From Elusimicrobia bacterium GWC2_64_44 (GTDB lineage Bacteria; Elusimicrobiota; Elusimicrobia; Elusimicrobiales; UBA9959), in contig MGUG01000048.1 of assembly GCA_001799845.1 (NCBI GenBank), positions 74,944 to 138,943 on the forward strand: a DNA stretch of 64,000 nt, given 5' to 3'. Below are positions 19,218 to 63,100 of this stretch, piece by piece. The notes beneath the pieces were generated by a model. That model made no database searches. It was not told the DNA's origin and worked only from the letters and a program-made list of their open reading frames with translations. The translations under genes and the position numbers were made by a program. Numbering within the stretch: the stretch's first letter is position 1; the number at the start of each line of letters is the position of its first letter.

Positions 19218-19221
19218 TTTT

Positions 19222-19497
19222 ATGTTCGTAGCCAAAGTCATAGGGAACGTCTGGGCCACCCGCAAGCATCCGGGGCTGAAGGGAGCCACCATGCTGCTGG
19301 TCAAGCCGCTGGGCGCCGACGGGAAACCGGCCGGCGAGGCGCAGCTCGCGCTCGACGGCGGGCAGGGCGCCGGGCCCGGAGATACCGTGCTGATAGTGGA
19401 CGAGGGCGGCTCCGCCCGCAAGATACTGCGGAATCCGAAAGCGCCGGTGCGCACCGTGATAGCCGGCATCGTGGATAAAGTCTATTTAGGAGAATAA
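19222..19497 (+). CDS. BMC-P vertex protein, paralogue 3
   Basis: 91 aa. The matching segments are [30 protein letters not shown]...[22 protein letters not shown]...TVIAGIVD. Confidence 0.85.
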
Positions 19498-19501
19498 GAC
19501 C

Positions 19502-49578: not shown

Positions 49579-49754
49579 TCTTACGTCCTTGACCGCTTCA
49601 TTTCCCAACCTGCGTAGGTGCCGTAAGGAGCGCTCCTTAAGACGGCCGGGCCTATCAGGCCTCCGTTCCGGCTGCGCACCGCCCGGGCCGCCGCGGCGGC
49701 TGTGGGCCGGGTTTTGTCGTTAACCCTGCACCAAAAAGCTTTTGGAATAAGTTT

Positions 49755-49783
49755 AATCTACAATAGTGCCGGAGGGATGTCAA
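49755..49783 (-). promoter_or_regulatory. Sigma-70 promoter for nrdJ
   Basis: The minus strand reads TTGACA-17 nt-TAGATT. This implies a GC-rich leader of about 170 nt that includes the perfect palindrome TAAGGAGCGCTCCTTA (49624-49639). Confidence 0.55.
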
Positions 49784-49808
49784 ATCTGCCGACGGCGGCC
49801 TTAAAAAG

Positions 49809-49846
49809 CCTCCCGGAACGGCCAAAACTGTTATAATTCCGGGAGG
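49809..49846. promoter_or_regulatory. 10-bp inverted repeat bracketing an extended -10 box upstream of the sigma-54-like gene
   Basis: The repeat is CCTCCCGGAA-N18-TTCCGGGAGG. The spacer contains TGTTATAAT (49829-49837, an extended -10 on the + strand). The right arm overlaps the SD-like GGGAGG 12 nt before the ATG at 49858. Confidence 0.45.
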
Positions 49847-49857
49847 GGAAAGCTCCA

Positions 49858-50907
49858 ATGAAAAAGCCCAGAAAACCGTCGCAGGAATTGGCGCAGGCGC
49901 AGGTGCAGCGGCAGGACCTGCGACTCTTCGCCGTGCTGGCCTCTTCGGAGGAGGATTTCCTGCGCCAGTCGGCGGAGCTGGAAGCCGACCCGCTCTTCGC
50001 GCGGCTCTGCGCCCCCGGCCCGGACGGGAGCGCCCCGGTGCTGCGCCGGCGCCTGCCCGGAGCTTCCTACGCCTTCTCCCTGGCCTGCGGGGACGACGCC
50101 CTGGCCGCGGCCGCCGGCCCCGGCGGCACCGCCGGCGAGTGGCTGGCCGCCAGGCCGGAGATGCTGGCGCTCGCGCGCCGCGTCGGGCTGGAGAATTTCG
50201 AGAAATTTTTCCTGTCGGACTCCGCCTTCAGCCCCGCCGCAGCCGCGCGGGCCTGCGGCTGCACTCCAGCCGAGGCCGCCGCCCTTAAAACTTTCGCCGC
50301 CGCCTTCCTGCTCGCGCACGAGCATATCGCCCCGGCCGCGCTGCCCAGGCTTTACCTGCGCTGCGCCGCGTCCGTAGGCGCCGAAGGCGGGAAACTTTCC
50401 ATTGCGTACACGCACCCGTCCTACCTGCGCGGCGCCTGCACCGTGGACCACCGGGCCCTGGCCAGCCTGGTAAAGAGCGGCGGGCTCACCCCCGCCGACG
50501 CCGCGCGCGCCGCCGGGCTGGCCGCGCGCGCCCAGCGACTGGCCTGGCGCCGGGCCGGCTTTCACCGCGTGATCTTGGCGCTGGTAGAGGCGCAGTCGGG
50601 CTTCCTGCTGCGGCGCTCGGGACTGGCCCCGCTGACGCAGCGGGAGCTGGCCGCGCGCTCCGGCCTGGACCCCGCCACGGTCTCGCGCCTCATAGCCTCC
50701 AGGACCTTGCTCGCCCCGTGGGGAGACGAGATAAAGCTGAAAGACCTTTTTCTCGCTAAAAACGCGTTTATAATTGATAAAATAAAGGCCATACTGGGGG
50801 CTGCCGACCAACGCTTGACCGACACCGAACTGACCGCGGTCCTCAGAACTAAACACGGTATACGGGTATCACGCCGCAGCGTGAACCTGTACAGGTCAAA
50901 GTTATGA
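49858..50907 (+). CDS. rpoN: Compact sigma-54-like RNA polymerase sigma factor
   Basis: 349 aa. The C-terminal HTH (LTQRELAARSGLDPATVSRLIASRTL...WGDEIKLKDLF) and the RpoN-box-like GIRVSRRSVNLYRSKL match the sigma-54 DNA-binding end. The N-terminus (QELAQAQVQRQDLRLF...ELEADPLF) resembles region I. It is about 100 aa shorter than typical RpoN. Confidence 0.6.
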   Translation: MKKPRKPSQELAQAQVQRQDLRLFAVLASSEEDFLRQSAELEADPLFARLCAPGPDGSAPVLRRRLPGASYAFSLACGDDALAAAAGPGGTAGEWLAARPEMLALARRVGLENFEKFFLSDSAFSPAAAARACGCTPAEAAALKTFAAAFLLAHEHIAPAALPRLYLRCAASVGAEGGKLSIAYTHPSYLRGACTVDHRALASLVKSGGLTPADAARAAGLAARAQRLAWRRAGFHRVILALVEAQSGFLLRRSGLAPLTQRELAARSGLDPATVSRLIASRTLLAPWGDEIKLKDLFLAKNAFIIDKIKAILGAADQRLTDTELTAVLRTKHGIRVSRRSVNLYRSKL

Positions 50908-52016
50908 TGAGCAAAAAAATAGGCGCGGCCGCCAATCCCATCTACAAAAGCCTCTTCGACGCGGTCTTCTTCAAGGCGCAGGAACCCATGCTGGTGCTGG
51001 ACCGCGGGCTCGCCGTGCTGGTGGTGAACAACAGCGCGCTGAAGCTGCTGGGCTGGTCGGGGCAGGACATCAACGACAAGCCGGTCTCCGAGCTGGTGCT
51101 GGGCAAGGACCTGAAAGATTTCCTCGAACTCCTGGAGCTGGCCTCGCGCAACGGCGTGGTGCGCAACTACCGCTTCTATATGCTGACCGCCTCCAAGAGC
51201 ATAGTGCGCCTCTTTCTCACCGTGCAGGCGCTCAAGGACGAGGCCGGCGTGGTGAACGGCTACTGCCTGTCTTTCTCGCCGGTCTCGCCCGACGAATGGT
51301 CCGCGCTGAAGGACCCGCACGTGTTCAAGAACGCTGCGCGCAAGCTCAACCGTCTCACTTCCATGGGCCAGCTCACCGCCATGTTCGCGCACGACATCAA
51401 GAACCCGCTGCACGTGATCCTCTCCACGTCGGAGCTGCTCGGCGCGCTGGAGAACCCGCCCGAGGGCGTGAAGACCGGGGCCGAGCTCATCGAGCGCAAC
51501 GCCCGACGGGCCTCAAAGATAGTCAAAACGCTGCTGGATTTCTCCCGCAGCGGCATGTGCCGCCTGGAGCCCTACTCCCTGGAGACAGCCGCCGACAACG
51601 CGCTGGAGCTGATAGACAGCTCGCTCAAGACCGCCAAGGTGCGTGTAGAGAAAAAATTCGACCGCGCGCCCAAGGTGTTCCTGGACCCGCATTACCTGCA
51701 CAGCGTCATCTACAACCTCCTTAACAACGCGGCCCAGGCCCTGGATGGCGCCCCCGACGGGCGCATCTCCGTCACGTCGGGCTGGCTGGAGAAGGAGGGC
51801 GAGGTGTTCCTGACCATCGCCGACAACGGGCCCGGCTTCGAGTCCGCCATGGCCGACAATCTCTTCCAGCCTTTCTTCACCACCAAGGAGAACGGCACGG
51901 GCCTCGGCCTCTACCTGGCCCGCCAGATCATGGACGAGCACGGCGGCCGCATCATAGTGGCCTCCTCGCCCGAGGGCGGGGCCATGGTGAGCCTGCGCTT
52001 CAAGAAGATCGTTTAA
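50904..52016 (+). CDS. Cytoplasmic PAS-domain sensor histidine kinase
   Basis: 370 aa with no TM segment. It has a PAS-like N-terminus, H-box FAHDIKNPL, N-box NLLNNAAQA and G-boxes DNGPGF and GTGLGL. There is an ATGA overlap with the sigma-54-like gene. Confidence 0.85.
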   Translation: MMSKKIGAAANPIYKSLFDAVFFKAQEPMLVLDRGLAVLVVNNSALKLLGWSGQDINDKPVSELVLGKDLKDFLELLELASRNGVVRNYRFYMLTASKSIVRLFLTVQALKDEAGVVNGYCLSFSPVSPDEWSALKDPHVFKNAARKLNRLTSMGQLTAMFAHDIKNPLHVILSTSELLGALENPPEGVKTGAELIERNARRASKIVKTLLDFSRSGMCRLEPYSLETAADNALELIDSSLKTAKVRVEKKFDRAPKVFLDPHYLHSVIYNLLNNAAQALDGAPDGRISVTSGWLEKEGEVFLTIADNGPGFESAMADNLFQPFFTTKENGTGLGLYLARQIMDEHGGRIIVASSPEGGAMVSLRFKKIV

Positions 52017-53383
52017 TGGGCAATATCCTCATCGCCGAAGACGACGCCGACACGCGCTACGTGCTGAAGGCCGCGCTAGAGAGCGGCCGGCACGCCTGCG
52101 CGGCGGCCGCCTCCGGCGCCGAGGCCCTGGCGCTGGCCGAGGCGCTCACCTTCGACGCCGTGGTGCTGGATATGGTGCTGGGCGACGCCGACGGGCTGGA
52201 GATACTGAAAAAACTGAAGAGCGAGGATCCCGGCCTGCCCGTCGTCATCCTCACCGGGCACGCCAACGTGCAGACCGCCGTGAAGGCCATGAAGCTGGGC
52301 GCGCTGGATTACCTGATAAAGCCTTTCGGCAACGAGGAGCTGCTGCTGATCATGGAAAAGGCCGTGAAGGAGCGCCGCCTCAAGCGCGAGTTTGACGCCC
52401 TGCGCAGCCACGTTAAGCGCGCCCAGGGCGCCGAGCCGGTGTTCGGCCCCAGCAAAGAGATCAAAAATACCGCCGCGCTGGCCCGCCAGGTGGCAGCCAC
52501 CGACCTCACCGTCATCCTGTCCGGCCCGTCGGGCGCCGGCAAGGAAGTGTGGGCGCGCGAGATACACAGGCTTTCCTCCCGCGCCGGCAGCCCCTTCGTG
52601 GCGCTGGACTGCGGCGCGCTGCCCGAGAACCTCGTCGAGAGCGAGCTGTTCGGCTACGAGCGCGGCGCTTTTACCGGCGCGGACCGCCGCAAGCCCGGCC
52701 TGTTCGAGGCGGCCTACGGCGGCACCCTTTTTCTCGACGAGATAGCCAACCTGACTCCGGGCACGCAGGCCAAGCTCCTGCGCGTACTGGAAGAGCGCAG
52801 GATCCGCCACCTCGGCGGAAAAAAGGACATTCCCATCGACACGCGCGTGATAGTAGCCGCCAACCGGGACCTGCCAGCCTGCATCAAGGCGGAAGAGTTC
52901 CGCGAGGACCTCTATCACCGCCTCAACCAGTTCACCCTGCGCGTGCCTTCGCTGGCCGAGCGCAAAGAGGACATCCCCGCGCTGGCGGCCTTCTTCCTGC
53001 GCGAGGCCGAGAAGCTGGTGAATAAAAAGATAGACTCCATTTCCGACTCCGCCATGGCCGCGCTGGCGGCCTACGCCTGGCCGGGCAACGTGCGCGAGCT
53101 CAAGAACGTCATTATCCGCGCCGCCCTGCTGAGCGGGGGGGAAATACTGCCGGTACACCTGGGCCTGGGCGGCGAACCCGCGTGCCCGGAGACGCCGCGC
53201 GCCGCAGCGCCCGAAAGTTTCGATCTGAAAGAAAACCTCCGTCTCGCCCGCTCGGAAACCGAACGCCGACTGATACGTGCTGCGCTGGCCGAAACCGGCG
53301 GAAATAAGCTGAAAGCTGCCAAGCTTCTGTCCATCGACCGCAAAGCACTTTACACAAAGATCAAAGAGTACTCACTAGAGTAG
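52016..53383 (+). CDS. Sigma-54-dependent response regulator (NtrC family enhancer-binding protein)
   Basis: 455 aa. It has a REC domain (VVLDMVLGDADG), AAA+ Walker A GPSGAGKE, the GAFTGA motif (ERGAFTGA) and a C-terminal Fis-type HTH (GNKLKAAKLLSIDRKALYTKIKEY). There is a 1-nt overlap with the kinase stop. Confidence 0.9.
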   Translation: MGNILIAEDDADTRYVLKAALESGRHACAAAASGAEALALAEALTFDAVVLDMVLGDADGLEILKKLKSEDPGLPVVILTGHANVQTAVKAMKLGALDYLIKPFGNEELLLIMEKAVKERRLKREFDALRSHVKRAQGAEPVFGPSKEIKNTAALARQVAATDLTVILSGPSGAGKEVWAREIHRLSSRAGSPFVALDCGALPENLVESELFGYERGAFTGADRRKPGLFEAAYGGTLFLDEIANLTPGTQAKLLRVLEERRIRHLGGKKDIPIDTRVIVAANRDLPACIKAEEFREDLYHRLNQFTLRVPSLAERKEDIPALAAFFLREAEKLVNKKIDSISDSAMAALAAYAWPGNVRELKNVIIRAALLSGGEILPVHLGLGGEPACPETPRAAAPESFDLKENLRLARSETERRLIRAALAETGGNKLKAAKLLSIDRKALYTKIKEYSLE

Positions 53384-53394
53384 TGGGGAAACTT

Positions 53395-53448
53395 TTCCAC
53401 AGTTATGCTGTGGAATATATTCCACAGTGTGGATAATATTCCACAGTG
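53395..53448 (+). promoter_or_regulatory. Cluster of TTCCACAG repeats/palindromes (putative enhancer, UAS)
   Basis: The cluster has TTCCACAG-N5-CTGTGGAA (53395-53415, perfect), TTCCACAG-TGTGGATA (53420-53435) and a third TTCCACAG (53439-53446). The 13-mer ATATTCCACAGTG occurs twice, 19 nt apart. The cluster lies about 190-240 nt upstream of the -24/-12 element. Confidence 0.6.
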
Positions 53449-53635
53449 ACTTTTAACAACTATTTCACTTTTTCGCCGCATTTCGGCACTGTCCCATCCT
53501 GTATAATTAAAACATGCAAAAGGCAATTGCGCCTATGAAAACGGCAGCGCCGCAGTCGGGCTTGCCCGCTCTCTTTTGGGGGATAATCCTTAAAACTATC
53601 AGCAAATATCTACCCATTTAGGGGTATAATGCTTT

Positions 53636-53651
53636 TGGCAAAGTCGTTGCT
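53636..53651 (+). promoter_or_regulatory. Sigma-54 (-24/-12) promoter
   Basis: In TGGCAAAGTCGTTGCT, the GG and GC are separated by exactly 10 nt as in the consensus TGGCAC-N5-TTGCW. It lies about 60 nt upstream of the ATG at 53711, which has a GGAGG SD. Confidence 0.7.
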
Positions 53652-53710
53652 ATAGTTAAAAAACGAGGGGATAACTATTCCAGATTTGGTTCCAGACAGT
53701 CGGAGGCACT

Positions 53711-56700
53711 ATGAAAACGTTCAAAGCCCGCATAACTAAAATCCTGATGGCGCTGCTGCTGCTGCCGGCAATAGCCGCCGCGGCCCCGAGCCAGATCAAC
53801 TACCAGGGCCGCCTGGTAGACGCAACCGGCAATCCGCTGAGCGGGAGCTACACGCTGACTTTCCGGATCTACGACGCCGCCTCGGCCGGAACCACGCTCT
53901 GGACCGAACCGCAGACGCTCACCGTGGATAACGGCATCTTCAGCGCCAAACTTGGCTCTGTCGCCAACCTGCCGCCCTCCGTGTTCTCCGCTGACACCCG
54001 CTACCTCGGCGTGACCGTCGGAGCCGACGCCGAGATGACCCCGCGCGTGCAGCTGCTCTCCGTCCCCTACGCCATCTACGCCGCCAGCGCCGCCAGCGTG
54101 GGCACTCCCGGCCAGGGCGTCATTATTTCCACCTTCGTGCAGGTCAACGACTATATCAGCGCCACACGGTTCATCGGCGACGGCTCGGGCCTTACCGGCA
54201 TCAGCGCCGGCGGGAGCTCCATAGTGCTCCCCATCGTTTCCACCCACATCGCCGACGGCAGCATTGCCAACGCCGACCTTGCTGGCTCCATCGCCTACAA
54301 CAAGCTCACCCTGACCGGCGCGATACTGAACGCCGACCTGGCTGGCTCCATCGCCTACAACAAGCTTGCCCTGACCGGCGCAATACTGAACGCCGACCTG
54401 GCCGGTTCCATCGCCGACAGCAAGCTGAACACCATCACGACTGCGGGTAAAGTTGACGGCGCGGCCGTGACCGGCCTGGCCAGCCTGCCCGCCGGCGCGG
54501 GCCTTATCCCCGCCGCCAATCTGCCCGCTACCGTGTCGTACCTGGGCAGCGACATAAGCAGCGCCGAGATCGCCGACGGCACCATCGCCGACGGCGACCT
54601 GGCCGCCAGCGGTTTCAATCTTTCGAAGTTCACCGTCGGCCAGATCAATACCGACCTCGTGGCGGGCACCCTTGTGTCCACCCACATCGCCGACGGCAGC
54701 ATAGCCAACGCCGACCTCGCGGGTTCCATAGCTTATAACAAGCTGGCTCTGACCGGAGCCGTCCTCAACGCCGACCTCGCCGGCTCCATCGCCTACAACA
54801 AGCTCGCCCTGACCGGCGCGATACTGAACGCCGACCTGGCTGGCTCCATAGCCGACAGCAAACTGAGCGCCATCACTACGGCCGGCAAAGTGGACGGCTC
54901 TGCCGTGACCGGCCTGGCCAACCTGCCCGCCGGCGCGGGCCTCATCCCCGCGGCCAATCTGCCCGCCACCGTGTCGTACCTGGGCAGCGACATCAGCAGC
55001 GCGGAGATCGCCGACGGCACCATCGCCAACGGCGACCTGGCCGCTTCCGGTTTCGACCTGGCCAAGTTCACCGTGGGACAGATCAGTACCGACCTTATAC
55101 CCGCGACTATAGTGTCTACTCATATAGCGGACGGCAGCATCGCCAACGCGGACCTGGCGGGCTCTATCGCTTACAACAAGCTGGCGCTTACCGGCGCCAT
55201 CCTGGACGCCGACCTGGCGGGCTCCATCGCCTACAGCAAGCTGAGCCTGACCGGCGCCATCCTGAACGCCGACCTGGCCGGTTCTATCGCCGACAGCAAG
55301 CTGAGCGCCATCACCACGGCCGGCAAAGTGGACGGTTCTGCCGTGACCGGCCTGGCCAACCTGCCCGCCGGCGCGGGCCTCATCCCCGCCGCCAACCTGC
55401 CCGCCACTGTGTCCTACCTGGGCAGCGACATAACTAATGCCGAGGTCGCGGCGGCCGCCGGCATCGTGTATTCCAAACTCGACCTTTCCAACAGCATCGT
55501 GGCCGGCGACCTGACCGCAGGCGCTGTCACCAAGGCCAAGCTCGCCGTGGAAGGCTGCGCTGACGGCAAGATCCTCAAGCTTGCCGGCGGCGCGTGGACC
55601 TGCGACGACGACGCCGGCGCCGGCGGTTCTGTCGCCGGTACCGGTGCCGCCGGCCGCGTGGCCTTCTGGACCGGGGCCGCCGCCATCGGTTCCAACGCGA
55701 ACATTTTCTGGGACGACACTAATTCTTACCTGGGTATAAATGACACGACTCCCGGCCAGGCCCTCGACGTGACCGGCAACATCAACGTGACCGGCAACGT
55801 AGTCGCCGCCAACGTGAGCGGCAACGGCTCCGGGCTGACGGCGCTTAATGCTGCAAATCTCGGTTCTGGCACCGTGGACGATGCGCGCCTCTCCGCCAAC
55901 GTGACGCTGCTGGGTGCTACGATAGACGCGGGCGAGCTGCCTGCCGACGGTTACGCTGCGACGTACGTGAACGCGGCCGAGGGTGATTCCGTAACTACGG
56001 GCATGATCACCAACGGCACTATCCTCAACGCCGACCTGTCGGCGAGCGGCTTCGACCTGGGCAAGTTCAGTGCGGGCACGCTGGGCACCGAGTTCATCGG
56101 CGGCACCATAGTTTCTACGCACATAGCCGCTAACGCCGCTATCCCTGACACCAAGCTGGCTACGATAGCTACCGCGGGCAAGGTATCCGACACCGCGCTG
56201 TCCGCCAACGTGACGCTGCTGGGCGCGACTATCGACGCGGGCGAGCTGCCTGCCGACGGCTACGCTGCGACTTACGTGAACGCGGCCGAGGCTGATTCCG
56301 TCACCTCTGCGATGATAACGAACGGAGAGATTGTGGACGCAGATATCGCTGCCGGTGCGGCTATAGTGCTGTCTAAATTGGCGACTACCGGTTCGCTTGG
56401 AGCGGCTGTTACGCATAAGGCCGGCGCTGGGACTGGCGAGGCTGCTCCGATCGGAACTCTCAGTGTTAATACTGGTACGCAGGCTACACTTGATACCGCA
56501 GGAGAAGAAGTTCTTATGAGCTTTTCCGTCCCGGCGGATTCCTTTAACGGGAATGGTAAAGCCGTAAAAATCAAGGCGTGGGGCACGACAGCCGCTAATG
56601 CGAACAGTAAGACCATAAAGATACGCTTCGGCGGTCTTGCCGGAGACGTCGTTCTGACCACTACTACATTCGCTAATGCTCAAGCCTGGGACCTTGAAGC

Positions 56701-56896
56701 GACGGTAGTACGTACCGGTGTCGGCACGCAGGAGTCAATCGCAAGGGGCTATGTCGGCGAATTCGTAGTGCCGGTAGCTAAAAACACTCCCGCTCAGGAC
56801 GAAACTGGCGCAGTTTCAGTCGCAGTTACCGGCGATACAGCAACTGCCGCAGGAGATGTAGTGGCTGAAGGTCTTATTGTTGAGTTCGTGAACTGA
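53711..56896 (+). CDS. Secreted repeat-rich fibre/adhesin-like protein (tail-fibre-like repeats)
   Basis: 1061 aa with a signal peptide (MKTFKARITKILMALLLLPAIAAAAP). The N-terminal module is INYQGRLVDATGNPLSGSYTLTFRIYD...LWTE. It has 20-aa repeats (ADLAGSIAYNKLALTGAILN) nested in 146-aa repeats. The C-terminal domain of about 200 aa is distinct and has lower GC. Confidence 0.8.
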   Translation: MKTFKARITKILMALLLLPAIAAAAPSQINYQGRLVDATGNPLSGSYTLTFRIYDAASAGTTLWTEPQTLTVDNGIFSAKLGSVANLPPSVFSADTRYLGVTVGADAEMTPRVQLLSVPYAIYAASAASVGTPGQGVIISTFVQVNDYISATRFIGDGSGLTGISAGGSSIVLPIVSTHIADGSIANADLAGSIAYNKLTLTGAILNADLAGSIAYNKLALTGAILNADLAGSIADSKLNTITTAGKVDGAAVTGLASLPAGAGLIPAANLPATVSYLGSDISSAEIADGTIADGDLAASGFNLSKFTVGQINTDLVAGTLVSTHIADGSIANADLAGSIAYNKLALTGAVLNADLAGSIAYNKLALTGAILNADLAGSIADSKLSAITTAGKVDGSAVTGLANLPAGAGLIPAANLPATVSYLGSDISSAEIADGTIANGDLAASGFDLAKFTVGQISTDLIPATIVSTHIADGSIANADLAGSIAYNKLALTGAILDADLAGSIAYSKLSLTGAILNADLAGSIADSKLSAITTAGKVDGSAVTGLANLPAGAGLIPAANLPATVSYLGSDITNAEVAAAAGIVYSKLDLSNSIVAGDLTAGAVTKAKLAVEGCADGKILKLAGGAWTCDDDAGAGGSVAGTGAAGRVAFWTGAAAIGSNANIFWDDTNSYLGINDTTPGQALDVTGNINVTGNVVAANVSGNGSGLTALNAANLGSGTVDDARLSANVTLLGATIDAGELPADGYAATYVNAAEGDSVTTGMITNGTILNADLSASGFDLGKFSAGTLGTEFIGGTIVSTHIAANAAIPDTKLATIATAGKVSDTALSANVTLLGATIDAGELPADGYAATYVNAAEADSVTSAMITNGEIVDADIAAGAAIVLSKLATTGSLGAAVTHKAGAGTGEAAPIGTLSVNTGTQATLDTAGEEVLMSFSVPADSFNGNGKAVKIKAWGTTAANANSKTIKIRFGGLAGDVVLTTTTFANAQAWDLEATVVRTGVGTQESIARGYVGEFVVPVAKNTPAQDETGAVSVAVTGDTATAAGDVVAEGLIVEFVN
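54236..55435 (+). repeat. In-frame tandem repeat: 438-bp units (2 full plus 1 partial), each containing three 60-bp sub-repeats
   Basis: Unit starts (VSTHIADGSIANADLAGS) are at 54236, 54674 and 55112, exactly 438 nt apart. The 60-nt sub-repeats start at 54272, 54332 and 54392. A separate 309-bp repeat pair starts at 55892 and 56201 (SANVTLLGATIDAGELPADGYAATYVNAAE). Confidence 0.9.
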
Positions 56897-56997: not shown

Positions 56998-58542
56998 ATG
57001 AGATATAAATACGCGGGGTTTGCGGCGGCGGCGTTGTGCTTTGGCGCGCTGTGCTCGTACGCGGCCAATAGCCAGGAGACGCGGGCCCTTACCACGGGGT
57101 TCTCCGTCTCCAATAGCGGCGGCAAGACGCTGGAGTCCACCGTCGGAGAGATCTCCGGCTCCACCATGGCCGCTTCGGGCAAGGGCCTGCGCAGCGGCCA
57201 TTCCGGCACCAGCCACAGCCCCGGCGTGGTCTACGACCTCACCGCTTCCACCAACGCCTCCGGCCAGGCCCTCTTCCAGTGGACCAGCGTTGGCGCTGAC
57301 GGCCTTTCCGGGCAGGCGGCCTACGTAGAGGTCAAGATCGCAACTTATCCCATCACCTACGCCAATTATTCCACTATTAATTCTTCCTTTACACTGGCGT
57401 CGCTGGCACCGGGCAGCGTAGAACAGGAACTTTACGGCGGGCTCACGGCCGGCAAGACCTATTACACCGCTGTGCGCGTGCGCGACGGCGCCAACATGTA
57501 CGGCCGCCTCTCGGCCAACGCCACCTTCGGCACCGCCCCCGTCAGGCCCCGCGCGCCCGTAGTGTCCGGCGTGGTGGCCGGCGGCAACTTCACCATTTCC
57601 TGGGGCGCCGTCACCTCCAACGTGGCAGGCAGCACCATCACCGTGCAGAACTACGAGGTCTACTACAGCACCGCGCTCAGCGGCGCTATCTCCGGCCCCG
57701 TTACGCTTCCCAACTCCACGCTGTCGTACAGCGTGGCCACCAGCCCGCTGCGGTGGTACTTCCTCAAGGCCCTCGACGGCGACGGCTTCCGCAGCGACGC
57801 TTCCGTCTGGCTGAACAACTCCGACGAGGTCTCCCGCACCGTGGCCGACGACTCCCGCGCCGTGGTGGACATGAGCCCCTACGTCGAGGACTTCCTCGCC
57901 ACCTCCGGCCTGCAGCCCGTCCTGCAGCATGAGCCCCAGTTCGAATCCGGCTCCACGGTGGTGTCCTACAGGTTCTACTTCCGCGACGCGGCCAACAACG
58001 AGGTAACGCAGCACCTGGCCGAGGACGTCACGCTGATCCTGCCGCTCTCCCGCACCGGAGCGTTCACCGTCAGCGCCGTCTCGCCCGCAGTGAATTACAG
58101 CGTCTACGACTACTCCGCCTACTTCTACAACGGCGTGGAGGACGTCAAGATAGGCGGCACCGTGAACCCGTCCGACGGCTCGGTGTCCATCCTGACGCGG
58201 CGGCCCGGCCTCTACAAGGTCAAGCAGGTCATCCGCGCGCAGAGCTTCAGCGTCATCCAGACCGAGCCGCGCAAGGTCTTCACGCCCAACGGCGACGGCG
58301 TCTGGGACCAGTTCAACATCGTCTACGACAACCCGGAGGGCCTGGCCATCACCGACGCCAAGGTCTACGACCTGTCAGGCGCCGAGATCGCCAGCCTGCG
58401 GTCGGGCACCTACGGCGCGCAGGCCTCGCTGGCCTGGGACGGCCGCAGGTCCAACGGCGACAAGGCCGTGTCCGGTATCTACATCTACCAGTTCAAGGCC
58501 GGCAGCAAGTTCTATAACGGCACCATGGTGGTGGCGCGGTAA
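56998..58542 (+). CDS. Secreted protein with FN3-like modules and a C-terminal FlgD-Ig-like/CHU_C-like beta-sandwich domain
   Basis: 514 aa with a signal peptide (MRYKYAGFAAAALCFGALCSYAA). FN3-like segments are present (FTISWGAVTS...YEVYYS). The C-terminus is KVFTPNGDGVWDQFNIVYD...KVYDLSGAEIASL...WDGRRSNGDKAVSGIYIYQFKAG. Confidence 0.7.
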   Translation: MRYKYAGFAAAALCFGALCSYAANSQETRALTTGFSVSNSGGKTLESTVGEISGSTMAASGKGLRSGHSGTSHSPGVVYDLTASTNASGQALFQWTSVGADGLSGQAAYVEVKIATYPITYANYSTINSSFTLASLAPGSVEQELYGGLTAGKTYYTAVRVRDGANMYGRLSANATFGTAPVRPRAPVVSGVVAGGNFTISWGAVTSNVAGSTITVQNYEVYYSTALSGAISGPVTLPNSTLSYSVATSPLRWYFLKALDGDGFRSDASVWLNNSDEVSRTVADDSRAVVDMSPYVEDFLATSGLQPVLQHEPQFESGSTVVSYRFYFRDAANNEVTQHLAEDVTLILPLSRTGAFTVSAVSPAVNYSVYDYSAYFYNGVEDVKIGGTVNPSDGSVSILTRRPGLYKVKQVIRAQSFSVIQTEPRKVFTPNGDGVWDQFNIVYDNPEGLAITDAKVYDLSGAEIASLRSGTYGAQASLAWDGRRSNGDKAVSGIYIYQFKAGSKFYNGTMVVAR

Positions 58543-58629
58543 ACTAAGGCCCGGGCGAGTTTAGCGGGCGAGGGTGGCGGCTGGCGGCGGGGGAACCCGC
58601 CGCACGGCCGTTACATTCAGGTAATATTT

Positions 58630-60081
58630 ATGAAACAGTTAAAATGTAGAATTGTAACTGTGGCGAAAGCATTTATTCTATTTTTGGCCTTTGCCACGGT
58701 CACTATGAACGCCGAAGCTTCCTTTTCTGCCGACTCAGCCTGCGGGGCGCGCGCCTCCGCGATGGCCGGCGCTTTTACCGCGGTGCCCGGCGGCGCCGAG
58801 GCCGCCTGCTCCAATCCCGCCACGCTGACCGAGCTCGGCTCGCCCGAGCTCACCGCGGTCTACGGCCGCCTCTACTCCGGCCTCTCCGACGATTCCTCTA
58901 TCGGCCAGGGCTACTTCGGCTTCGCCGCGCCGATCAAGAAATACCTGCAGGGCAACGCCGCCTTCTCCTGGAGCGACACCCGCCTGAGCGAGGCCTACTC
59001 CGAGAGCGCCTACTCCCTCAGCTACGCCACTTCCGTCTACCGCGGCATCGGCGCGGGCCTCACGCTCAAGTACCTGCGCCGCGCCTATACCTCCGACGCC
59101 TATACCGCGCTGGACCCGGTTTTCAACAGCGGCTATTCCAAAGGCGCGCTCGGCGCCGACCTGGGCTTCTTCTACCGGCCCCGGACCAACTACGCTTTCG
59201 GCCTTTCGTTCCGCAACCTCAACAAGCCCGACCTGGGCCTGGCCTCCTCCGACCCGCTGCCCCTGGAGACCCGCGCGGGCTTCTCCTACCTGACCCGCTC
59301 CACCCTGCTCGACGTGGACGCGGCGTTCGCGGGCCCCGACTACAATCTTTCCGCCGGCGTAGAGCACCTGTTCCAGCGCCGCTTCCTGCTGCGCATGGGC
59401 CTGGCCACCGGCAACGATTCCCGCCGCAGCGTGAACCTGGGCTTCGGCAGCCGCTTCGGGCTGGCCTCCTTCGACTACGCCTTCAGCCTTCCCATCAGCG
59501 GCATAGCCGGCACCATCGGTTCCCACCGCCTGGCTTTCTCTTTCAAGTTCGGCGCCGACGCGGCCCTGGCCGAAGACCTGGCCGCCGCGGCCGACCTGAA
59601 GCGGGCGCAGGAGCGCGCCGTGCTGCAGGAGGAGAAGATACGCGTGCTGCAGGAGCGGCTGGACGCCGTAGTGCGCCAGAGCGTGGGCCTCGCGCAGCAG
59701 CCCGCTGCACAGCCCGCTGCCGTTCCCGCGCAGGCGGCGCAGCCCGCGCAGCAGCCCGTGGTCATAATACAGCCTTCCCAGTCGGACGCGAAGGCGCAGG
59801 CGGAAATAAGCCGCCAGATAGAGAATTTGAAACTGGAGCTGGAGAAGTCCCGCGCCGAGATGGAGACGCTGAAGGCCAGGCCGGCCGCGGCTCAGCAGCC
59901 CAAGCCCGCCCAGCAGCCCGCGCGCCGCACCTACGTGGTTAAAGACGGCGACACGCTGGGAAGCATCGCGGCCTCCGTCTACGGCGACGCCGACCGCTGG
60001 CCGGAGATCTACCGCGCCAACAGCGCCTCGGTGGGCCGCGGGGGCGAAGTTAAACCGGGGCAGGTGCTGTCGCTGCCTTAA
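58630..60081 (+). CDS. Outer-membrane beta-barrel (PorV/FadL-like N-terminal motif) fused to coiled coil, Pro/Gln/Ala linker and C-terminal LysM
   Basis: 483 aa with a signal peptide. The motif GARASAMAGAFTAVPGGAEAACSNPATL and strand-like segments extend to about aa 305 (HRLAFSFKFG). These are followed by a coiled coil (LKRAQERAVLQEEKIRVLQERL; IENLKLELEKSRAEMETLK). The LysM is YVVKDGDTLGSIAASVYGDADRWPEIYRAN...PGQVLSLP. Confidence 0.7.
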   Translation: MKQLKCRIVTVAKAFILFLAFATVTMNAEASFSADSACGARASAMAGAFTAVPGGAEAACSNPATLTELGSPELTAVYGRLYSGLSDDSSIGQGYFGFAAPIKKYLQGNAAFSWSDTRLSEAYSESAYSLSYATSVYRGIGAGLTLKYLRRAYTSDAYTALDPVFNSGYSKGALGADLGFFYRPRTNYAFGLSFRNLNKPDLGLASSDPLPLETRAGFSYLTRSTLLDVDAAFAGPDYNLSAGVEHLFQRRFLLRMGLATGNDSRRSVNLGFGSRFGLASFDYAFSLPISGIAGTIGSHRLAFSFKFGADAALAEDLAAAADLKRAQERAVLQEEKIRVLQERLDAVVRQSVGLAQQPAAQPAAVPAQAAQPAQQPVVIIQPSQSDAKAQAEISRQIENLKLELEKSRAEMETLKARPAAAQQPKPAQQPARRTYVVKDGDTLGSIAASVYGDADRWPEIYRANSASVGRGGEVKPGQVLSLP

Positions 60082-60112
60082 CCCGGCGCGGAAGTTTTAG
60101 AGAGATACTAAT

Positions 60113-63100
60113 ATGAACGAGAATTTCGACGAATCCTCCCTCAACGAGGCCGCCATTAACGACGTGGAAACGGCCCGCCTGGCCCTGCGCTGGTCGCTGG
60201 ACAAGATCCGCGCCCTGCACGAGGAAGACCTCAAGACCCGCCAGAACCTGCAGGAAAAGAACAGCCAGGTGGCTTTCCTCGAGAACCAGCTGAAGTCCAA
60301 GAACACCGAGATAGACCGCTCCACCCGCGTGCACGAGGAGGAGATGAAGTCCCGCCAGTCGTCGATGGAATACCAGTTCCGCGCGCGCCTGGAGCGCCTG
60401 ACCGAGCGCGAGAAAGAGCTGGAAGACAAGATCTCCAAGAACGAGGAGGTGCTCAAGCAGAAGGAGCTCCGCCTCGACTCCGATTACCAGAAGAAGGCGG
60501 AAGACCTCCGCGGCCGCTGGGCCAGCGTGGAGGGGGAACTGTGGCAGCTGCGCCAGGAGCAGCTGGCCAAGCAGCAGGAGTTCGAGCGCGTCTACGGCGC
60601 CCGCCTGGAAGAAGAGAAGAAAAGATTTTCAGAGGAAGCCGCCCAGCAGAAGTCCATGCTGGAGGAGACCTACCGCAACCGCGTGGAGGAGCTCGAGAAG
60701 CGCGAGCGCTCCGTCAGCGACGAGCTCAAGAAGCAGGAGGCCGTGCTGAAGTGGGCCAAGGACAGCTGGCAGAAGGACACCGAGGAGCGCGAGCGCGTCC
60801 TGAAGCAGAAAGACCTGGAGATAGACAAAAAGATCCTGGAGAAGAACCAGGAGATCGACGATTACAAGGTCAAACTTTCGCTGCTCGAGAAGCAGCTCAA
60901 GGACCTGCCCGAGGCGGTCAGGCGCCGCGACGAGGACCTGAACCGCTACAAGGACGCGATCGGCAGCCTGGAAAGCGTCATCCGCACCTTGGAGAACGAG
61001 AAGAAGAACCAGCAGGCCGACTACGAGGGCCGCCTCTCCAAGGCGGGCGAGGCGGTAGAGCACGAACGCTCCCGCTTCCGCGAGATGGAGGCCGAGATCC
61101 CGCGGCGTCTGAAGATCGCCGTAGAGCACGAGCGCAACCGTTTTTCCGAGAAGCTGCAGGAGATCGAGCGCGGCTACCGCGACGACCTGGGCAAGCGCCA
61201 GGACGAGGTGGACTATCTGCAGCGCAACCTGCACACTTTCGAGGAGACCATAAAGACCCTGCAGGCCGAGCGCGAGACCATGGCGCACAAGGCCGACCAG
61301 CTGCAGACGCAGTATAACGTGCGGCAGGAGGAATTCTCCTTCCGCGAGAAGCAGCTGCAGTCCGAGTACGACGTGCGCCTCAAGGTGGAGATGGAGAAGC
61401 ACACCGCCGCGCTGCGCTCCGAGATAGAGACCGCCGGCCGCATCTACGAGGACAGCCTCCGCCTGAAGGTGGAGGAGATCTCCCACCTGCGCCGCGACAT
61501 CGACGAGATTTCCAAGGAAAAGACCGCTGCCAAGGACCAGCAGGCCGAGCTGCGCCGCCAGCTCGAGGCCGCCGCCGAGCGCGGCGTCTCCGAGCAGGAC
61601 GCGCTGCGGGCCAGGCTGAAAGCCGAGAGCGAGCAGCGGCTGGCCGAGGCCGCCGCGCACGCCGAGCGGACACGCGCCGCCGAGAAGCAGAAATTCGCCG
61701 ACGAGCTCGACGGCCGCGCCGGCGAGTTCAAGGCCGAGGTCGCCCGCAAGGACGACGAGATCATGGCCCTGCGCCTGTCGGTCCAGAAGGCCGGCGAGGA
61801 GCAGCGCATGCTGCGCCAGAAGGCCGGCGAAGAGCTGAAGGCCGCCGTGCAGGAAGAAAAAGCCCGCGCCGCCGCCGAGCTGGAGGACCGGGCCTCGCGC
61901 CTGGCCGCCACCATCAAGCTGCGCGACGACAAGATCTCCGAGCTCACCTCCGCCCTCGAGGCGGCCAGGATAGAGCGCGAGGAGCTGATGCTGCTGGAGC
62001 GCGAGCGCCTGCAGCGCATCTACGCCGAGAAAGAAAAAGCTATAGACGAGGAGCTGGCCGCCCGCGACGCCGAACTGCTGCGGGCCCGCGAGGCCGCAGC
62101 CCGCGCCGGCGCCGAGAAGGACGCCGCGGCGCACGCCTTCGCCGCGGACCGCCGCAACCTGGAAGAAAAGCTTACCGCCCTCACCGTGCGGCTGACCGAA
62201 GAGGAAGCCGCGGCCGGGGTGAAGCTGGACGCCGCGCTGCGCCGCGAAGCGGACCGCTACGCCGAGATCATAGACCGCAAGAACAAGGAGCTGGAGGCGG
62301 CGGCGCAGGTGCGCCAGTCGCAGGAAGACGCCTACCGCAAAACGCTGGCCGATTTCCGCTCCAACTTGTCCGAAGCGCTTGGCAAGTTCGAAGCGCTGAA
62401 GGCCACCGCCGAAGAGCGGCAGGCGCAGCTGATGGCCCTGCAGGTAGAACTGGCCCAGGAGAAGAAGCAGGCCGGCGAGCTGGGGTCTTCGCTCTCCGCG
62501 CGCCTCTCCGAGAAGGAAAAACTTTACCGCGACCTCCGCCTGCAGCACGACGACCTCAAGGAGGCCTTCGAAGAGGAAGTGAAGACCGCCGAGCGCCGCT
62601 ACAACGACGCCCTGCTGAAGCTGCGAGCGGCCGAGGAGCAGAAGGCCGCCCGCGACAAGCAGATAGAGGCCTTCAAGCGCGACGGCGACCTGCTGCGCGC
62701 CGAGAACCAGCGCCGCGAGCACGAGGCGGCCGAGCTGAAAGCCTCAGTTTCCAAGCAGGTGGAGACCGAGCGCCGCGAGATGCACGCCTCCGGCGAGCGC
62801 CGCGCGCACGAGTACGCCCAGAAGGAAAAGTCCCTGCTCTCCGAGATCTCCGCGCTGCGCGACATCGCCAACGCCAAGGACGTCATGCTGGAGAAGCAGA
62901 AGGTCCAGTTCGAGGAAGCCCGCAACAGCGCCGAGCGCCTGAAGGCCGCCCTGGAAGAAGAGCGGGCCCGCCAGACCGAGGCTGAGGCAGACCGCTCCCT
63001 CCGGTACGAGGAATACGACGAACGCCTGGCCGCCACGGCCGAGCGTGAGAAAGCGCTGTCCGGCGAGATCCTGGCGCTGAAGAAAACGCTGTCGGATATA

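What the first reader, a model, noticed from the sequence alone, without database searches (positions are those of the whole stretch)
49858..53651. Self-contained sigma-54 module: compact sigma-54-like factor, PAS kinase and NtrC-type activator sitting directly on their presumptive target promoter
The three genes are translationally coupled (ATGA and TAATG overlaps). A 349-aa protein has a sigma-54-type HTH and an RpoN-box-like C-terminus (SRRSVNLYRSKL) but is about 100 aa shorter than usual. It is followed by a cytoplasmic PAS histidine kinase and a GAFTGA-containing enhancer-binding protein. Twelve nt after the activator stop begin TTCCACAG palindromes (53395-53448). About 190-240 nt further downstream lies TGGCAAAGTCGTTGCT with exact GG-N10-GC spacing (53636-53651). 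rpoN is normally found with lptB/hpf/ptsN rather than with a two-component pair. This may therefore be a dedicated sigma-54 paralogue wired to one operon.
Basis: partly seen in the sequence, partly recalled or inferred. Interest (0 to 1): 0.65.

Follow-up and report, generated by a model that had tools for sequence, protein, structure and literature searches.

The report
Compact sigma-54 cassette of Elusimicrobia
An uncultured Elusimicrobia bacterium encodes an unusually small sigma-54 transcription factor beside its own sensor kinase and activator, just upstream of a highly conserved sigma-54 promoter for a variable surface-fibre gene; the arrangement recurs across the phylum and I found no description of it.

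Summary
Genes 49858-53383 encode a 349-aa sigma-54-like protein, a cytoplasmic PAS histidine kinase and an NtrC-type activator, joined by ATGA and TAATG overlaps. Three TGTrGA-N6-TCyACA palindromes start right after the activator stop. TTGGCAAAGTCGTTGCTAT lies at 53635-53653, 58 nt before a 1061-aa fibre gene.

Comparative data make this more than a pattern match. The trio occurs once in each of 32 Elusimicrobiales species. In 552 kb of related loci, 28 of 29 TGGCA-N6-TTGC matches are this element, always downstream of the activator and next to its palindromes. Remote modules (24-38% sigma identity, including Endomicrobiia) keep the sigma-(kinase)-activator-promoter layout.

The sigma is truly compact. 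Its C-terminal 225 residues align with E. coli RpoN 231-465 (99.6% probability) and Region I aligns weakly. Region II and the first half of the core-binding domain have no detectable counterpart.

I could not test the "dedicated paralogue" idea. Published surveys found no RpoN in the two Elusimicrobia genomes available in 2011, and the promoter is fully canonical. The protein is therefore more likely the lineage's only sigma-54. It is a new variant of a known kind.

The parts
49832..49837 (+). TATAAT 20 nt before the sigma ATG, preceded by TG (TGTTATAAT). Candidate housekeeping promoter of the three-gene operon.
   Evidence: Read from the sequence. No sigma-54-type element lies in this 249-nt intergenic region. 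Inference only.
49858..50907 (+). Compact sigma-54 (349 aa). Region I-like N-terminus (~10-50, ELEADPLF at 40). Residues 51-124 have no detectable homologue. Residues 125-349 match E. coli RpoN 231-465. Predicted long helix 212-245, HTH 258-280 (TVSRL, invariant R277), RpoN box SRRSVNLYR at 338-346.
   Evidence: Pfam Sigma54_DBD only. TIGR02395 scores 61.7 bits against a cutoff of 277. PDB profile hits are all sigma-54, residues 203-347. hhalign. AF2 pLDDT 83 and Foldseek top 24 hits all sigma-54.
50904..52016 (+). Cytoplasmic PAS histidine kinase (370 aa): H-box FAHDIKNP at 161, N, G1 and G2 boxes present. ATGA overlap with the sigma stop.
   Evidence: Pfam PAS, HisKA, HATPase_c. Best NCBIfam match is AtoS, below cutoff. 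Motifs. Conserved next to the sigma in all complete related loci.
52016..53383 (+). NtrC-type enhancer-binding protein (455 aa): receiver (VVLDM motif at residue 49; the phospho-acceptor Asp inferred at D52), Walker A GPSGAGKE at 170, GAFTGA at 217, Walker B LFLDE at 238, C-terminal Fis-type HTH. TAATG overlap with the kinase stop.
   Evidence: Pfam Response_reg, Sigma54_activat (E=1e-63), AAA_lid_14, HTH_8. Motifs. 79-94% identical in related loci, more conserved than the sigma at 57-91%.
53384..53445 (.). Three inverted repeats TGTrGA-N6-TCyACA (53384-53401, 53409-53426, 53428-53445; start-to-start 25 and 19 nt). Presumed activator binding sites (UAS).
   Evidence: 81 such sites lie in the 400 nt upstream of the promoter in 31 loci (12.4 kb), against 21 in the remaining 502 kb. 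They stay with the promoter when other genes separate it from the activator gene (L004, L011, L013, L040). The same repeat type follows related activator genes outside the phylum.
53453..53468 (+). Conserved block TTAACAACTATTTCAC between the UAS and the promoter. Resembles an IHF-type site (WATCAANNNNTTR, two mismatches). Possible DNA-bending site.
   Evidence: Invariant TTAACAA in alignment A4. Present in 27 of 31 loci at a fixed 47-48 nt before the TATAAT block. The IHF reading is inference from the textbook consensus.
53502..53507 (+). Invariant TATAAT, unexplained. Candidate sigma-70-type -10 box or protein site, rigidly spaced from the UAS unit and variably spaced (31-209 nt) from the sigma-54 promoter.
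53635..53653 (+). Sigma-54 promoter TTGGCAAAGTCGTTGCTAT: GG at 53637-53638 (-24), GC at 53649-53650 (-12). Predicted start near 53662.
   Evidence: Only perfect TGGCA-N6-TTGC in the window. 28 of 29 such matches in 552 kb of related loci are this element, all on the + strand downstream of the activator gene. It is an invariant block in an otherwise 67%-identical intergenic alignment. The start position is inferred from the usual -12 convention.
53702..53706 (+). Ribosome-binding site GGAGG of the fibre gene.
   Evidence: CGGAGGCA(C/T)TATG is invariant in alignment A4.
53711..56896 (+). Target gene: 1061-aa secreted repeat fibre. Signal peptide, conserved N-terminal domain (INYQGRLVD...), 146-aa units x2.7 with 20-aa sub-repeats, variable C-terminus.
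   Evidence: NCBIfam Bdello_MAT_N E=6e-11, 42 bits (cutoff 60). A gene with this N-terminus starts 55-75 nt (70-88 nt from the T of TGGCA) after the promoter in related loci. 17 related contigs run off inside it.
56998..63763 (+). Three same-strand downstream genes, probably co-transcribed: 514 aa with a CHU_C/T9SS-like C-terminus (56998-58542), 483 aa with LysM (58630-60081), 1216 aa with no family (60113-63763).
   Evidence: No further sigma-54-type promoter lies in this stretch. Co-transcription is inferred from strand and short gaps (31-101 nt).

Best explanation
This is the reduced sigma-54 system of Elusimicrobiota. One operon encodes a compact sigma-54, a cytoplasmic PAS sensor kinase and an NtrC-type activator.

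Proposed mechanism (inferred):
1. The kinase senses an intracellular signal through its PAS domain and phosphorylates the activator's receiver domain.
2. The activator oligomerises on the three TGTrGA-N6-TCyACA repeats that start at the base after its own stop codon.
3. The compact sigma, bound to core RNA polymerase, holds a closed complex at TTGGCAAAGTCGTTGCTAT about 190-250 nt downstream. Its RpoN box contacts the -24 GG and its HTH contacts the -12 GC.
4. DNA looping, perhaps helped by a bend at the conserved TTAACAA block, brings the activator's GAFTGA loops to the sigma's Region I-like N-terminus.
5. ATP hydrolysis opens the promoter, and a variable surface-fibre gene with about three downstream genes is transcribed.

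Shown here: gene content, domain content, motif presence, co-conservation of all parts, and the compactness of the sigma.

Inferred: the sigma binds core polymerase despite lacking a recognisable first half of the core-binding domain; the activator binds the repeats; this is the genome's only sigma-54.
For: Sigma identity:
- Pfam Sigma54_DBD in all 25 close and 53 distant members.
- The profile hits only sigma-54 chains in the PDB.
- hhalign aligns residues 125-349 with E. coli RpoN 231-465 (prob 99.6%, E=9e-24). This covers the beta region, long helix, HTH with invariant Arg and the RpoN box xRRxVxxYR.
- The N-terminus aligns co-linearly with Region I (residues 2-55 vs 4-55, P=2.4e-4).
- AF2 model pLDDT 83; the top 24 Foldseek hits are all sigma-54.

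Activator and kinase: complete motifs.

Conservation:
- One trio in each of 32 Elusimicrobiales species, in nrd-tmk-holB-metG synteny.
- 28 of 29 TGGCA-N6-TTGC matches in 552 kb are this promoter, all in the same orientation downstream of the activator gene.
- UAS repeats are about 150-fold enriched upstream of it and move with it.
- The promoter is an invariant island in a diverged intergenic region.
- A metagenome scan for the 19-mer found 14 activator/fibre loci and no other convincing locus type.

Generality:
- Remote modules keep sigma-(kinase)-activator followed within 160 nt by TGGCA-N6-TTGC: L065 (assigned to Endomicrobiia from a >=90%-identity DnaJ cluster member), L067, L077, L081.
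- All 4 strict matches in 98 kb of the seven remote loci scanned together are at that position; L081 has one more there.

Sole sigma-54:
- Two surveys found no RpoN in the Elusimicrobia genomes then sequenced.
- The promoter is fully canonical, so it offers no insulation from a second sigma-54.
Against: - Nothing here is experimental.
- No Pfam Sigma54_AID or Sigma54_CBD hit in any of 78 members.
- Residues 51-124 have no credible counterpart in canonical sigma-54.
- The N-terminal half modelled alone is poor (pLDDT 62) and finds nothing in the PDB. Core binding is therefore unproven.
- I could not inspect the rest of any genome, so a full-length rpoN and further activators or promoters are not excluded.
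- An invariant TATAAT in the same intergenic region could be a sigma-70 promoter for the fibre operon.
- L010 and L014 show no such promoter in the DNA held. L078 has the trio and palindromes but no strict -24/-12 match.
Confidence: 0.7

Rival explanations
1. The compact protein is a specialised sigma-54 paralogue that coexists with a normal full-length rpoN elsewhere in the genome and serves only this operon.
For: - It is not in the lptB-rpoN-hpf context typical of housekeeping rpoN.
- It is always tied to one kinase/activator pair and one promoter.
- It evolves faster than its activator, 57-91% against 79-94% identity.
- Multiple rpoN paralogues with separate regulons are known in Rhodobacter and rhizobia (own knowledge; plasmid-borne rpoN copies seen).
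Against: - No full-length rpoN was seen in about 1 Mb of related DNA held, though that DNA is all from the same neighbourhoods.
- Published surveys report no RpoN in the Elusimicrobia genomes then available.
- The promoter is a textbook TGGCA-N6-TTGC and the DNA-contacting residues are canonical, so nothing would keep a housekeeping sigma-54 off it.
- The gene lies in conserved chromosomal synteny and was found once per species.
Confidence: 0.2
2. The 349-aa protein is not a sigma factor. It is a sigma-54-derived DNA-binding protein that occupies the -24/-12 element as a repressor, placeholder or decoy, and a canonical sigma-54 does the transcription.
For: - Only the DNA-binding half is recognisably sigma-54.
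- The segment equivalent to the minimal core-binding fragment of E. coli sigma-54 (about residues 120-215; own knowledge) has no detectable counterpart.
Against: - A Region I-like N-terminus is conserved at the right place. A pure DNA binder would not need it.
- The C-terminal part of the core-binding region (E. coli 231-310) is retained.
- The N-terminal 210 residues are conserved family-wide and model confidently in the full-length context.
- A GAFTGA activator is co-encoded in every lineage and needs a sigma-54 partner.
Confidence: 0.07
3. The fibre operon is transcribed mainly from a sigma-70-type promoter that uses the invariant TATAAT at 53502-53507. The sigma-54 element is secondary or only modulates this.
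For: - TATAAT is invariant in the 10-species alignment and present at the conserved position in most of the 31 loci examined, at a fixed distance from the UAS/TTAACAA unit.
- The sigma gene's own upstream region has a similar TGnTATAAT.
Against: - No conserved -35 element. The simple sigma-70 scan does not call it.
- Its distance to the fibre ATG varies from about 100 to 280 nt, while the sigma-54 promoter keeps a fixed 70-88 nt from the T of TGGCA to the ATG.
- It does not explain the 19-nt invariant -24/-12 block or the co-encoded sigma-54 and activator. The two promoters could coexist.
Confidence: 0.25
4. The -24/-12 match and the palindromes are chance patterns in an AT-rich intergenic region.
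For: A single TGGCA-N6-TTGC in 64 kb is not unexpected. One-mismatch matches are fewer than in shuffles.
Against: The element is identical in about 28 species at the same relative position and strand, with three phased palindromes, amid diverged flanks.
Confidence: 0.01

Closest known systems
Canonical sigma-54 (E. coli/Klebsiella RpoN, 477 aa; Aquifex aeolicus sigma-N, 398 aa, PDB 5ui5)
   Same: - Region I-like N-terminus, beta segment, extra-long helix, HTH with the conserved Arg, and three-helix RpoN domain with xRRxVxxYR.
- Recognises TGGCA-N6-TTGC.
- Partnered with a GAFTGA AAA+ activator.
   Different: - 322-387 aa in nearly all family members (rare outliers 399-472 aa), with no acidic Region II.
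- No detectable counterpart of the first half of the core-binding domain (E. coli about 57-230 replaced by about 75 residues).
- Fails Pfam AID and CBD and the TIGR02395 cutoff.
- Not in an lptB-hpf-ptsN context.
Borrelia burgdorferi Hk2-Rrp2 / RpoN / rpoS promoter, and Chlamydia CtcB-CtcC / sigma-54 (own knowledge, not tested here)
   Same: Minimal sigma-54 systems: one kinase, one activator and very few promoters (essentially one in Borrelia).
   Different: - Those sigma-54s are full-length with all three domains, and rpoN is not co-transcribed with the kinase and activator.
- Rrp2 is reported to act without a classical upstream site.
- Here all three genes form one operon next to UAS, promoter and target.
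NtrB-NtrC / glnAp2 and AtoS-AtoC type two-component sigma-54 activation
   Same: PAS kinase plus receiver-AAA+-Fis HTH activator, tandem inverted-repeat UAS 100-300 nt upstream of a -24/-12 promoter, and a possible bend site between them.
   Different: The best NCBIfam matches (AtoC, NtrX, PEP-CTERM regulator, NtrC) are all below their cutoffs, so this is not an orthologue of any of them. The sigma gene is part of the same operon. The target is a surface fibre.
Gas-vesicle clusters in L083 ('Patescibacteria group' MAG) and L082 (Omnitrophota MAG), which hold the closest non-Elusimicrobia relatives of the activator
   Same: - Kinase-activator followed directly by TGTAGA-N6-TCTACA repeats and a TGGCA(C/T)-N5-TTGCT promoter.
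- In L083 an rpoN gene is adjacent.
   Different: The L083 sigma-54 is a canonical 481-aa protein with AID+CBD+DBD, transcribed divergently. The target is gas-vesicle genes.
Bdellovibrio mosaic adhesive trimer (MAT) fibres (PMC10769870), as the closest family for the target gene
   Same: Conserved N-terminal domain, long repetitive shaft and variable C-terminal end.
   Different: The NCBIfam score of 42 bits is below the cutoff of 60. No structural or sequence match for the rest. No evidence that these Elusimicrobia are predators.

Membership tests
Sigma-54 (RpoN) family | C-terminal RpoN box (ARRTVAKYR-type) in a three-helix domain that reads the -24 GG | tested here: met
   SRRSVNLYR at 338-346. 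R339, R340, V342, Y345 and R346 are invariant in 25 close members; R340 is invariant and R339/R346 nearly invariant in 53 distant ones. It aligns to the RpoN box of PDB sigma-54 chains.
Sigma-54 (RpoN) family | Extra-long helix plus HTH that reads the -12 element (conserved Arg, E. coli R383) | tested here: met
   Predicted helix 212-245 and HTH 261-279. TVSR(277)L aligns with E. coli STISR(383)V. R277 is invariant.
Sigma-54 (RpoN) family | Core-binding domain (Pfam PF04963; E. coli about 120-310) | tested here: inconclusive
   No PF04963 hit in 78 members. hhalign aligns residues 125-225 to E. coli 231-330, the C-terminal part. Residues 51-124 have no credible match (prob 21%). The N-terminal-only model is too poor for a fold test.
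Sigma-54 (RpoN) family | Region I / activator-interacting domain (Pfam PF00309) | tested here: inconclusive
   No PF00309 hit. The profile-profile alignment is co-linear, residues 2-55 to E. coli 4-55, P=2.4e-4, probability 44%, sharing L..E(L/F)...I..E.E.(N/D)P(L)(L/F).
Sigma-54 (RpoN) family | Passes the curated whole-protein model (TIGR02395 rpoN_sigma, cutoff 277 bits) | tested here: not met
   61.7 bits, matching model positions 291-425 only. NCBI records call the homologues 'hypothetical protein'.
Sigma-54 (RpoN) family | Binds core RNA polymerase and needs an AAA+ activator for open-complex formation | not testable with these tools
   Only indirect evidence: obligate genomic linkage to a GAFTGA activator and a -24/-12 promoter.
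NtrC-family bacterial enhancer-binding protein | Receiver domain + AAA+ sigma-54 interaction domain with GAFTGA + C-terminal Fis-type HTH | tested here: met
   Response_reg (E=3e-27), Sigma54_activat (E=1e-63), AAA_lid_14 and HTH_8. GAFTGA 217, Walker A 170, Walker B 238. It is not an orthologue of AtoC, NtrC or ZraR: all equivalog cutoffs are missed.
Class I histidine kinase with PAS sensor | PAS + HisKA (H-box) + HATPase_c (N, G1, G2 boxes) | tested here: met
   No N-terminal hydrophobic segment is evident in the sequence, so it is probably cytoplasmic (inference).
Sigma-54-dependent promoter with upstream activator sites | GG-N10-GC with TGGCA/TTGC flanks, 12 nt upstream of the start, and activator sites 80-300 nt upstream | tested here: met
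   The sequence criteria are met and phylogenetically footprinted. The transcription start and activator binding are not testable here.
Bdellovibrio MAT (mosaic adhesive trimer) fibre family | NCBIfam NF053851 N-terminal domain above cutoff | tested here: not met
   42.4 bits against a cutoff of 60 (E=6e-11), residues 15-86. It resembles the family but is not a member by the curated threshold.

The most novel reading that the evidence does not exclude
Elusimicrobiota have replaced canonical sigma-54 with a 322-387-aa minimal form. It binds core RNA polymerase without Region II and without the first half of the classical core-binding domain. It is the only sigma-54 in the cell and is hard-wired, with one kinase and one activator in the same operon, to essentially a single promoter that controls a hypervariable surface fibre or adhesin. 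That would be the smallest natural enhancer-dependent transcription system.
Probability: 0.4. Interest if true: 0.75.

Novelty: new variant of a known kind. Interest (0 to 1): 0.6.

Why it matters
- Sigma-54 is the one bacterial sigma factor that needs an ATP-driven activator, and its domain plan has been treated as fixed. The 2025 survey I read identifies sigma-54 by strict scores for three Pfam domains, so it would miss this family.
- This family has 192 representatives at 50% clustering with E<1e-30. It keeps the DNA-reading half and a Region I-like tip but has a much reduced middle. That gives a natural experiment on which parts of the core-binding domain are really needed.
- It is also a very small, fully linked sensor-activator-sigma-promoter cassette that could be tested or reused as an orthogonal switch.
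- It changes the picture of Elusimicrobia, which were recorded as lacking sigma-54.
- It links their sigma-54 to giant or variable surface proteins, in line with the proposal that sigma-54 controls the cell exterior (PMC3162934).

Tried and rejected
- **Looking for a second rpoN or activator.** A six-frame phmmer scan of the window found only the genes of the cassette. No available tool could target a hypothetical canonical Elusimicrobia rpoN.
- **Fold test of the N-terminal half alone.** The model had pLDDT 62.5 and Foldseek found nothing below E=0.6. This is inconclusive, not negative.
- **Second homologue search with the distant alignment A3.** It returned almost only the close family again.
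- **Fusion proteins.** The 839- and 914-aa representatives have no recognisable extra domain, so they give no sigma-activator fusion evidence.
- **Small ORF or RNA explanation for the conserved intergenic blocks.** ORFs starting after TATAAT differ in length and end point between species. Rfam finds nothing in 49500-53800.
- **Spacer conservation due to coding.** The same reading frame crosses the promoter in two loci but is stopped earlier in the window. Rejected.
- **PHROGs and PDB sequence searches of the fibre operon proteins.** Only a LysM-type hit turned up.
- **My first promoter pattern used N7 instead of N6** and missed the site. Corrected.

Full report
**What is in the window**

Between a minus-strand ribonucleotide reductase gene (47068-49608) and a long plus-strand repeat-protein gene lie three tightly packed plus-strand ORFs:
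- 49858-50907, 349 aa
- 50904-52016, 370 aa, sharing ATGA with the previous stop
- 52016-53383, 455 aa, sharing TAATG

Pfam gives Sigma54_DBD alone for the first (residues 226-349). It gives PAS+HisKA+HATPase_c for the second and Response_reg+Sigma54_activat+AAA_lid_14+HTH_8 for the third. The activator has Walker A, GAFTGA and Walker B motifs and a receiver domain (VVLDM motif; acceptor Asp inferred). The kinase has H, N, G1 and G2 boxes.

Three 18-nt inverted repeats (TGGGGAAACTTTTCCACA, TGTGGAATATATTCCACA, TGTGGATAATATTCCACA) begin at the base after the activator's TAG. TGGCAAAGTCGTTGC at 53636-53650 is the only perfect TGGCA-N6-TTGC in the 64 kb. The fibre ATG is at 53711, behind a GGAGG. 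The rest of the window is ordinary chromosome of a 65% G+C organism.

**Is it more than a pattern?**

The 349-aa protein has 65 close homologues, nearly all 336-384 aa apart from two fragments. Where named they are 'hypothetical protein' from Elusimicrobia MAGs, and Sigma54_DBD is their only sigma-54 Pfam domain.

A scan of one genome per species found the gene in 32 Elusimicrobiales/Elusimicrobiaceae MAGs, once in each; the scan patterns detect only close relatives. In every locus with enough flank it is followed by the kinase and the activator, usually downstream of nrd-tmk-holB-metG. The activator is 79-94% identical across these loci. The sigma is 57-91% identical.

In 552 kb of these loci, both strands, TGGCA-N6-TTGC occurs 29 times. 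Twenty-eight of these are the same element, consensus TTGGCAAAGTCGTTGCTAT. All are on the operon strand and downstream of the activator gene.

Repeats of the form TGTrGA-N6-TCyACA (two mismatches allowed) occur 81 times in the 400 nt upstream of that element in 31 loci. They occur 21 times in the other 502 kb. They come as a triplet with 24-25 and 19 nt spacing.

In L004, L011, L013 and L040 other genes lie between the activator gene and the promoter. There the repeats stay with the promoter, not with the gene.

In an alignment of ten intergenic regions (67% mean identity) the repeats, a TTAACAA block, a TATAAT, the 19-nt promoter and the ribosome-binding site stand out as invariant islands.

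An exact-match scan of JGI metagenome contigs for the 19-mer gave 26 stretches:
- Fourteen carry the activator and/or the fibre N-terminus beside it.
- Ten of the others lie in unrelated, coding-like sequence of different G+C.
- Two short contigs have a matching palindrome next to it.
- No second kind of locus emerged.

A gene with the conserved fibre N-terminus (MKT.KA...INYQGRLVD) starts 55-75 nt after the element throughout (70-88 nt from the T of TGGCA).

**How far does the arrangement extend?**

A profile search of 1.84 billion representative proteins found 192 clusters at E<1e-30. Nearly all are 322-390 aa and aligned end to end. Those with names are Elusimicrobiota.

Contexts of remote members:
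- L065 (24% identity): sigma-activator. A DnaJ cluster member assigns it to Endomicrobiia.
- L067 (27%): sigma-kinase-activator.
- L077 (38%): nrd-sigma-PAS kinase-activator.
- L078 (31%): sigma-hybrid kinase-activator-1455-aa FN3 protein.
- L079: activator-small ORF-sigma.
- L081: a 322-aa sigma-kinase-activator-protein of more than 2434 aa.
- L068: the only exception with usable flank.

In L065, L067, L077 and L081 a strict TGGCA-N6-TTGC lies within 160 nt of the activator stop. In L077 and L081 the same palindrome type precedes it. All four strict matches in the 98 kb of the seven remote loci scanned together sit there, and L081 adds one more. The spacer, frozen as AAGTCG in the close family, is free in these remote modules. 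The base after TGGCA is A in every Elusimicrobiota site.

The closest activators outside the phylum (L082, L083) precede gas-vesicle genes. They also have TGTAGA-N6-TCTACA repeats and a TGGCA(C/T)-N5-TTGCT promoter right after the stop. L083 has a canonical 481-aa rpoN (AID+CBD+DBD) next door. So placing the activator gene on top of its own enhancer and promoter is an older habit of this activator subfamily. What is special to Elusimicrobiota is the compact sigma fused into the operon.

**What kind of sigma-54 is it?**

Profiles of the close (A1) and distant (A3) families hit only sigma-54 chains in the PDB, but only with residues about 201-349.

I built a reference alignment of eight canonical sigma-54s: E. 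coli from the RefSeq record and seven from plasmid or chromid records, including Bacteroidota, Bacillota and Fusobacteriota. Against it, hhalign gave:
- Residues 125-349 align with E. coli 231-465 at 99.6% probability. This covers the last helices of the core-binding region, the beta segment (canonical 'PD..V....G.W.V.LN'), the extra-long helix, the HTH (TVSR277L against STISR383V) and the RpoN box (SRRSVNLYR against ARRTVAKYR).
- Residues 2-55 align co-linearly with Region I residues 4-55 (P=2.4e-4, probability 44%).
- Residues 51-124 have no credible partner. The best alternative has 21% probability and maps to a different repeat of the core-binding domain.

No member hits Pfam Sigma54_AID or Sigma54_CBD. 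TIGR02395 gives 62 bits against a 277-bit cutoff.

The full-length AlphaFold model is confident (pLDDT 83). Its 24 best PDB matches are all sigma-54, with up to 320 aligned columns but low TM-scores because the domains are arranged differently. The N-terminal half modelled alone is poor and uninformative.

My reading is as follows. Region I is retained in diverged form. Region II is absent. About 170 canonical residues (E. coli about 57-230) are replaced by about 75, and everything from about 231 onward is retained. In E. coli, residues 120-215 are the classical minimal core-binding fragment (own knowledge, Gallegos and Buck 1999). How this protein holds core polymerase is therefore the main open mechanistic question.

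**Paralogue or the only sigma-54?**

I could not test this directly. The window and all loci hold no other sigma-54 or activator, but they sample one neighbourhood.

Indirect points favour a sole, lineage-specific sigma-54:
- Conserved chromosomal synteny and one copy found per species.
- Francke et al. list Elusimicrobium minutum among diderms lacking sigma-54 and activators (PMC3162934). A second survey counts zero RpoN in the two Elusimicrobia genomes of 2011 (PMC3372290).
- A 2025 survey that demands all three Pfam domains does not cover the phylum and would miss this family (PMC12316311).
- The target promoter and the DNA-contacting residues are canonical. A co-resident housekeeping sigma-54 would not be excluded from it.

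I put the paralogue reading at about 0.2.

**The target**

The 1061-aa product has a signal peptide. Its N-terminal domain resembles the Bdellovibrio mosaic-adhesive-trimer fibre N-terminus (42 bits, below the 60-bit cutoff; family described in PMC10769870). It has 146-aa units with 20-aa sub-repeats and a C-terminus with no known relatives.

Seventeen related contigs run off inside this gene, as expected for a repetitive, variable gene. Three further same-strand genes follow: one with a CHU_C/T9SS-like tail, one with LysM and one unknown of 1216 aa. In other lineages the module precedes giant FN3-type or other very large proteins. Sigma-54 control of surface structures fits the 'bacterial exterior' theme of PMC3162934.

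**Loose end**

An invariant TATAAT (53502-53507) sits a fixed 47-48 nt after the TTAACAA block and thus moves with the enhancer unit. Its distance to the sigma-54 promoter falls into classes of 31, 73, 134, 144 and 209 nt. It may be a sigma-70 -10 box giving basal or competing transcription, or a protein site. No conserved -35, small ORF or Rfam family explains it.

**Verdict**

The module and promoter interpretation is strongly supported by comparative evidence. The 'dedicated paralogue' claim is unsupported and less likely than 'the phylum's own reduced sigma-54'. The cassette works like a classical NtrB/NtrC-sigma-54 switch, and the sigma belongs to the sigma-54 superfamily by its DNA-binding half. 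It fails the curated whole-protein definition and lacks a recognisable half of the core-binding domain, so it is a new variant of a known kind. Interest is moderately high (0.6).

Noticed in passing
window 11479-20482: Bacterial microcompartment locus: RnfC-like flavoprotein, two BMC shell genes, triosephosphate isomerase, phosphotransacylase (PTAC), aldehyde dehydrogenase, RpiB and DeoC-type aldolase. This is a sugar-phosphate/aldehyde-type metabolosome in an Elusimicrobia genome.
   Followed up: no
window 53502-53507 (and the same position in the related loci): Invariant TATAAT a fixed 47-48 nt after a conserved TTAACAA block. It is tied to the enhancer repeats but lies at variable distance (31-209 nt) from the sigma-54 promoter. 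Possible second (sigma-70) promoter or protein site; unexplained.
   Followed up: partly
window 53635-53653; L065, L067, L077, L081, L082, L083: All Elusimicrobiota promoters examined read TGGCAA, whereas the two outgroup loci read TGGCAC or TGGCAT. The spacer AAGTCG is frozen within the close family but free in remote modules.
   Followed up: partly
window 53711-56896 and related loci: The fibre gene has a 438-nt unit repeated 2.7 times with 60-nt sub-repeats. Seventeen related contigs run off inside it, suggesting a repetitive and hypervariable gene. Its N-terminus resembles Bdellovibrio MAT fibres below the family cutoff.
   Followed up: partly
L083:308-5750 and L082:4514-9102: Gas-vesicle gene clusters in non-Elusimicrobia MAGs are preceded by PAS kinase-activator pairs with the same repeat type and a sigma-54 promoter right after the activator stop. 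L083 has a canonical 481-aa rpoN divergently adjacent.
   Followed up: partly
L081:3968-4936: An even shorter family member (322 aa) in the same sigma-kinase-activator arrangement, followed by two TGTAGA-N6-TCTACA repeats, TGGCAATAAAATTGC and a gene of more than 2434 codons.
   Followed up: partly
L068:2045-9597: Here the compact sigma gene is not next to an activator. It follows a PorV-like/TPR gene and a 1469-aa FN3/Big_5 protein gene that is itself preceded by TGGTAATTGTGTTGC (GG-N10-GC).
   Followed up: no
L077:4077-7817: The ribonucleotide reductase gene upstream of the cassette carries an intein with a LAGLIDADG endonuclease in this relative (1246 aa against 846 aa in the window).
   Followed up: no
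L075 (Lacticaseibacillus paracasei plasmid NZ_CP052066.1, 44045-46038): A plasmid-borne full-length rpoN is flanked by a sigma-54 activator gene and a PTS gene. This is another case of rpoN travelling with its activator and target.
   Followed up: no
window 42535-42552 and the equivalent position in about 15 loci: A TGTGGA-N6-TCCACA-like match recurs 8-11 kb upstream of the promoter; in the window it falls inside the metG ORF. It is probably a conserved coding coincidence.
   Followed up: no
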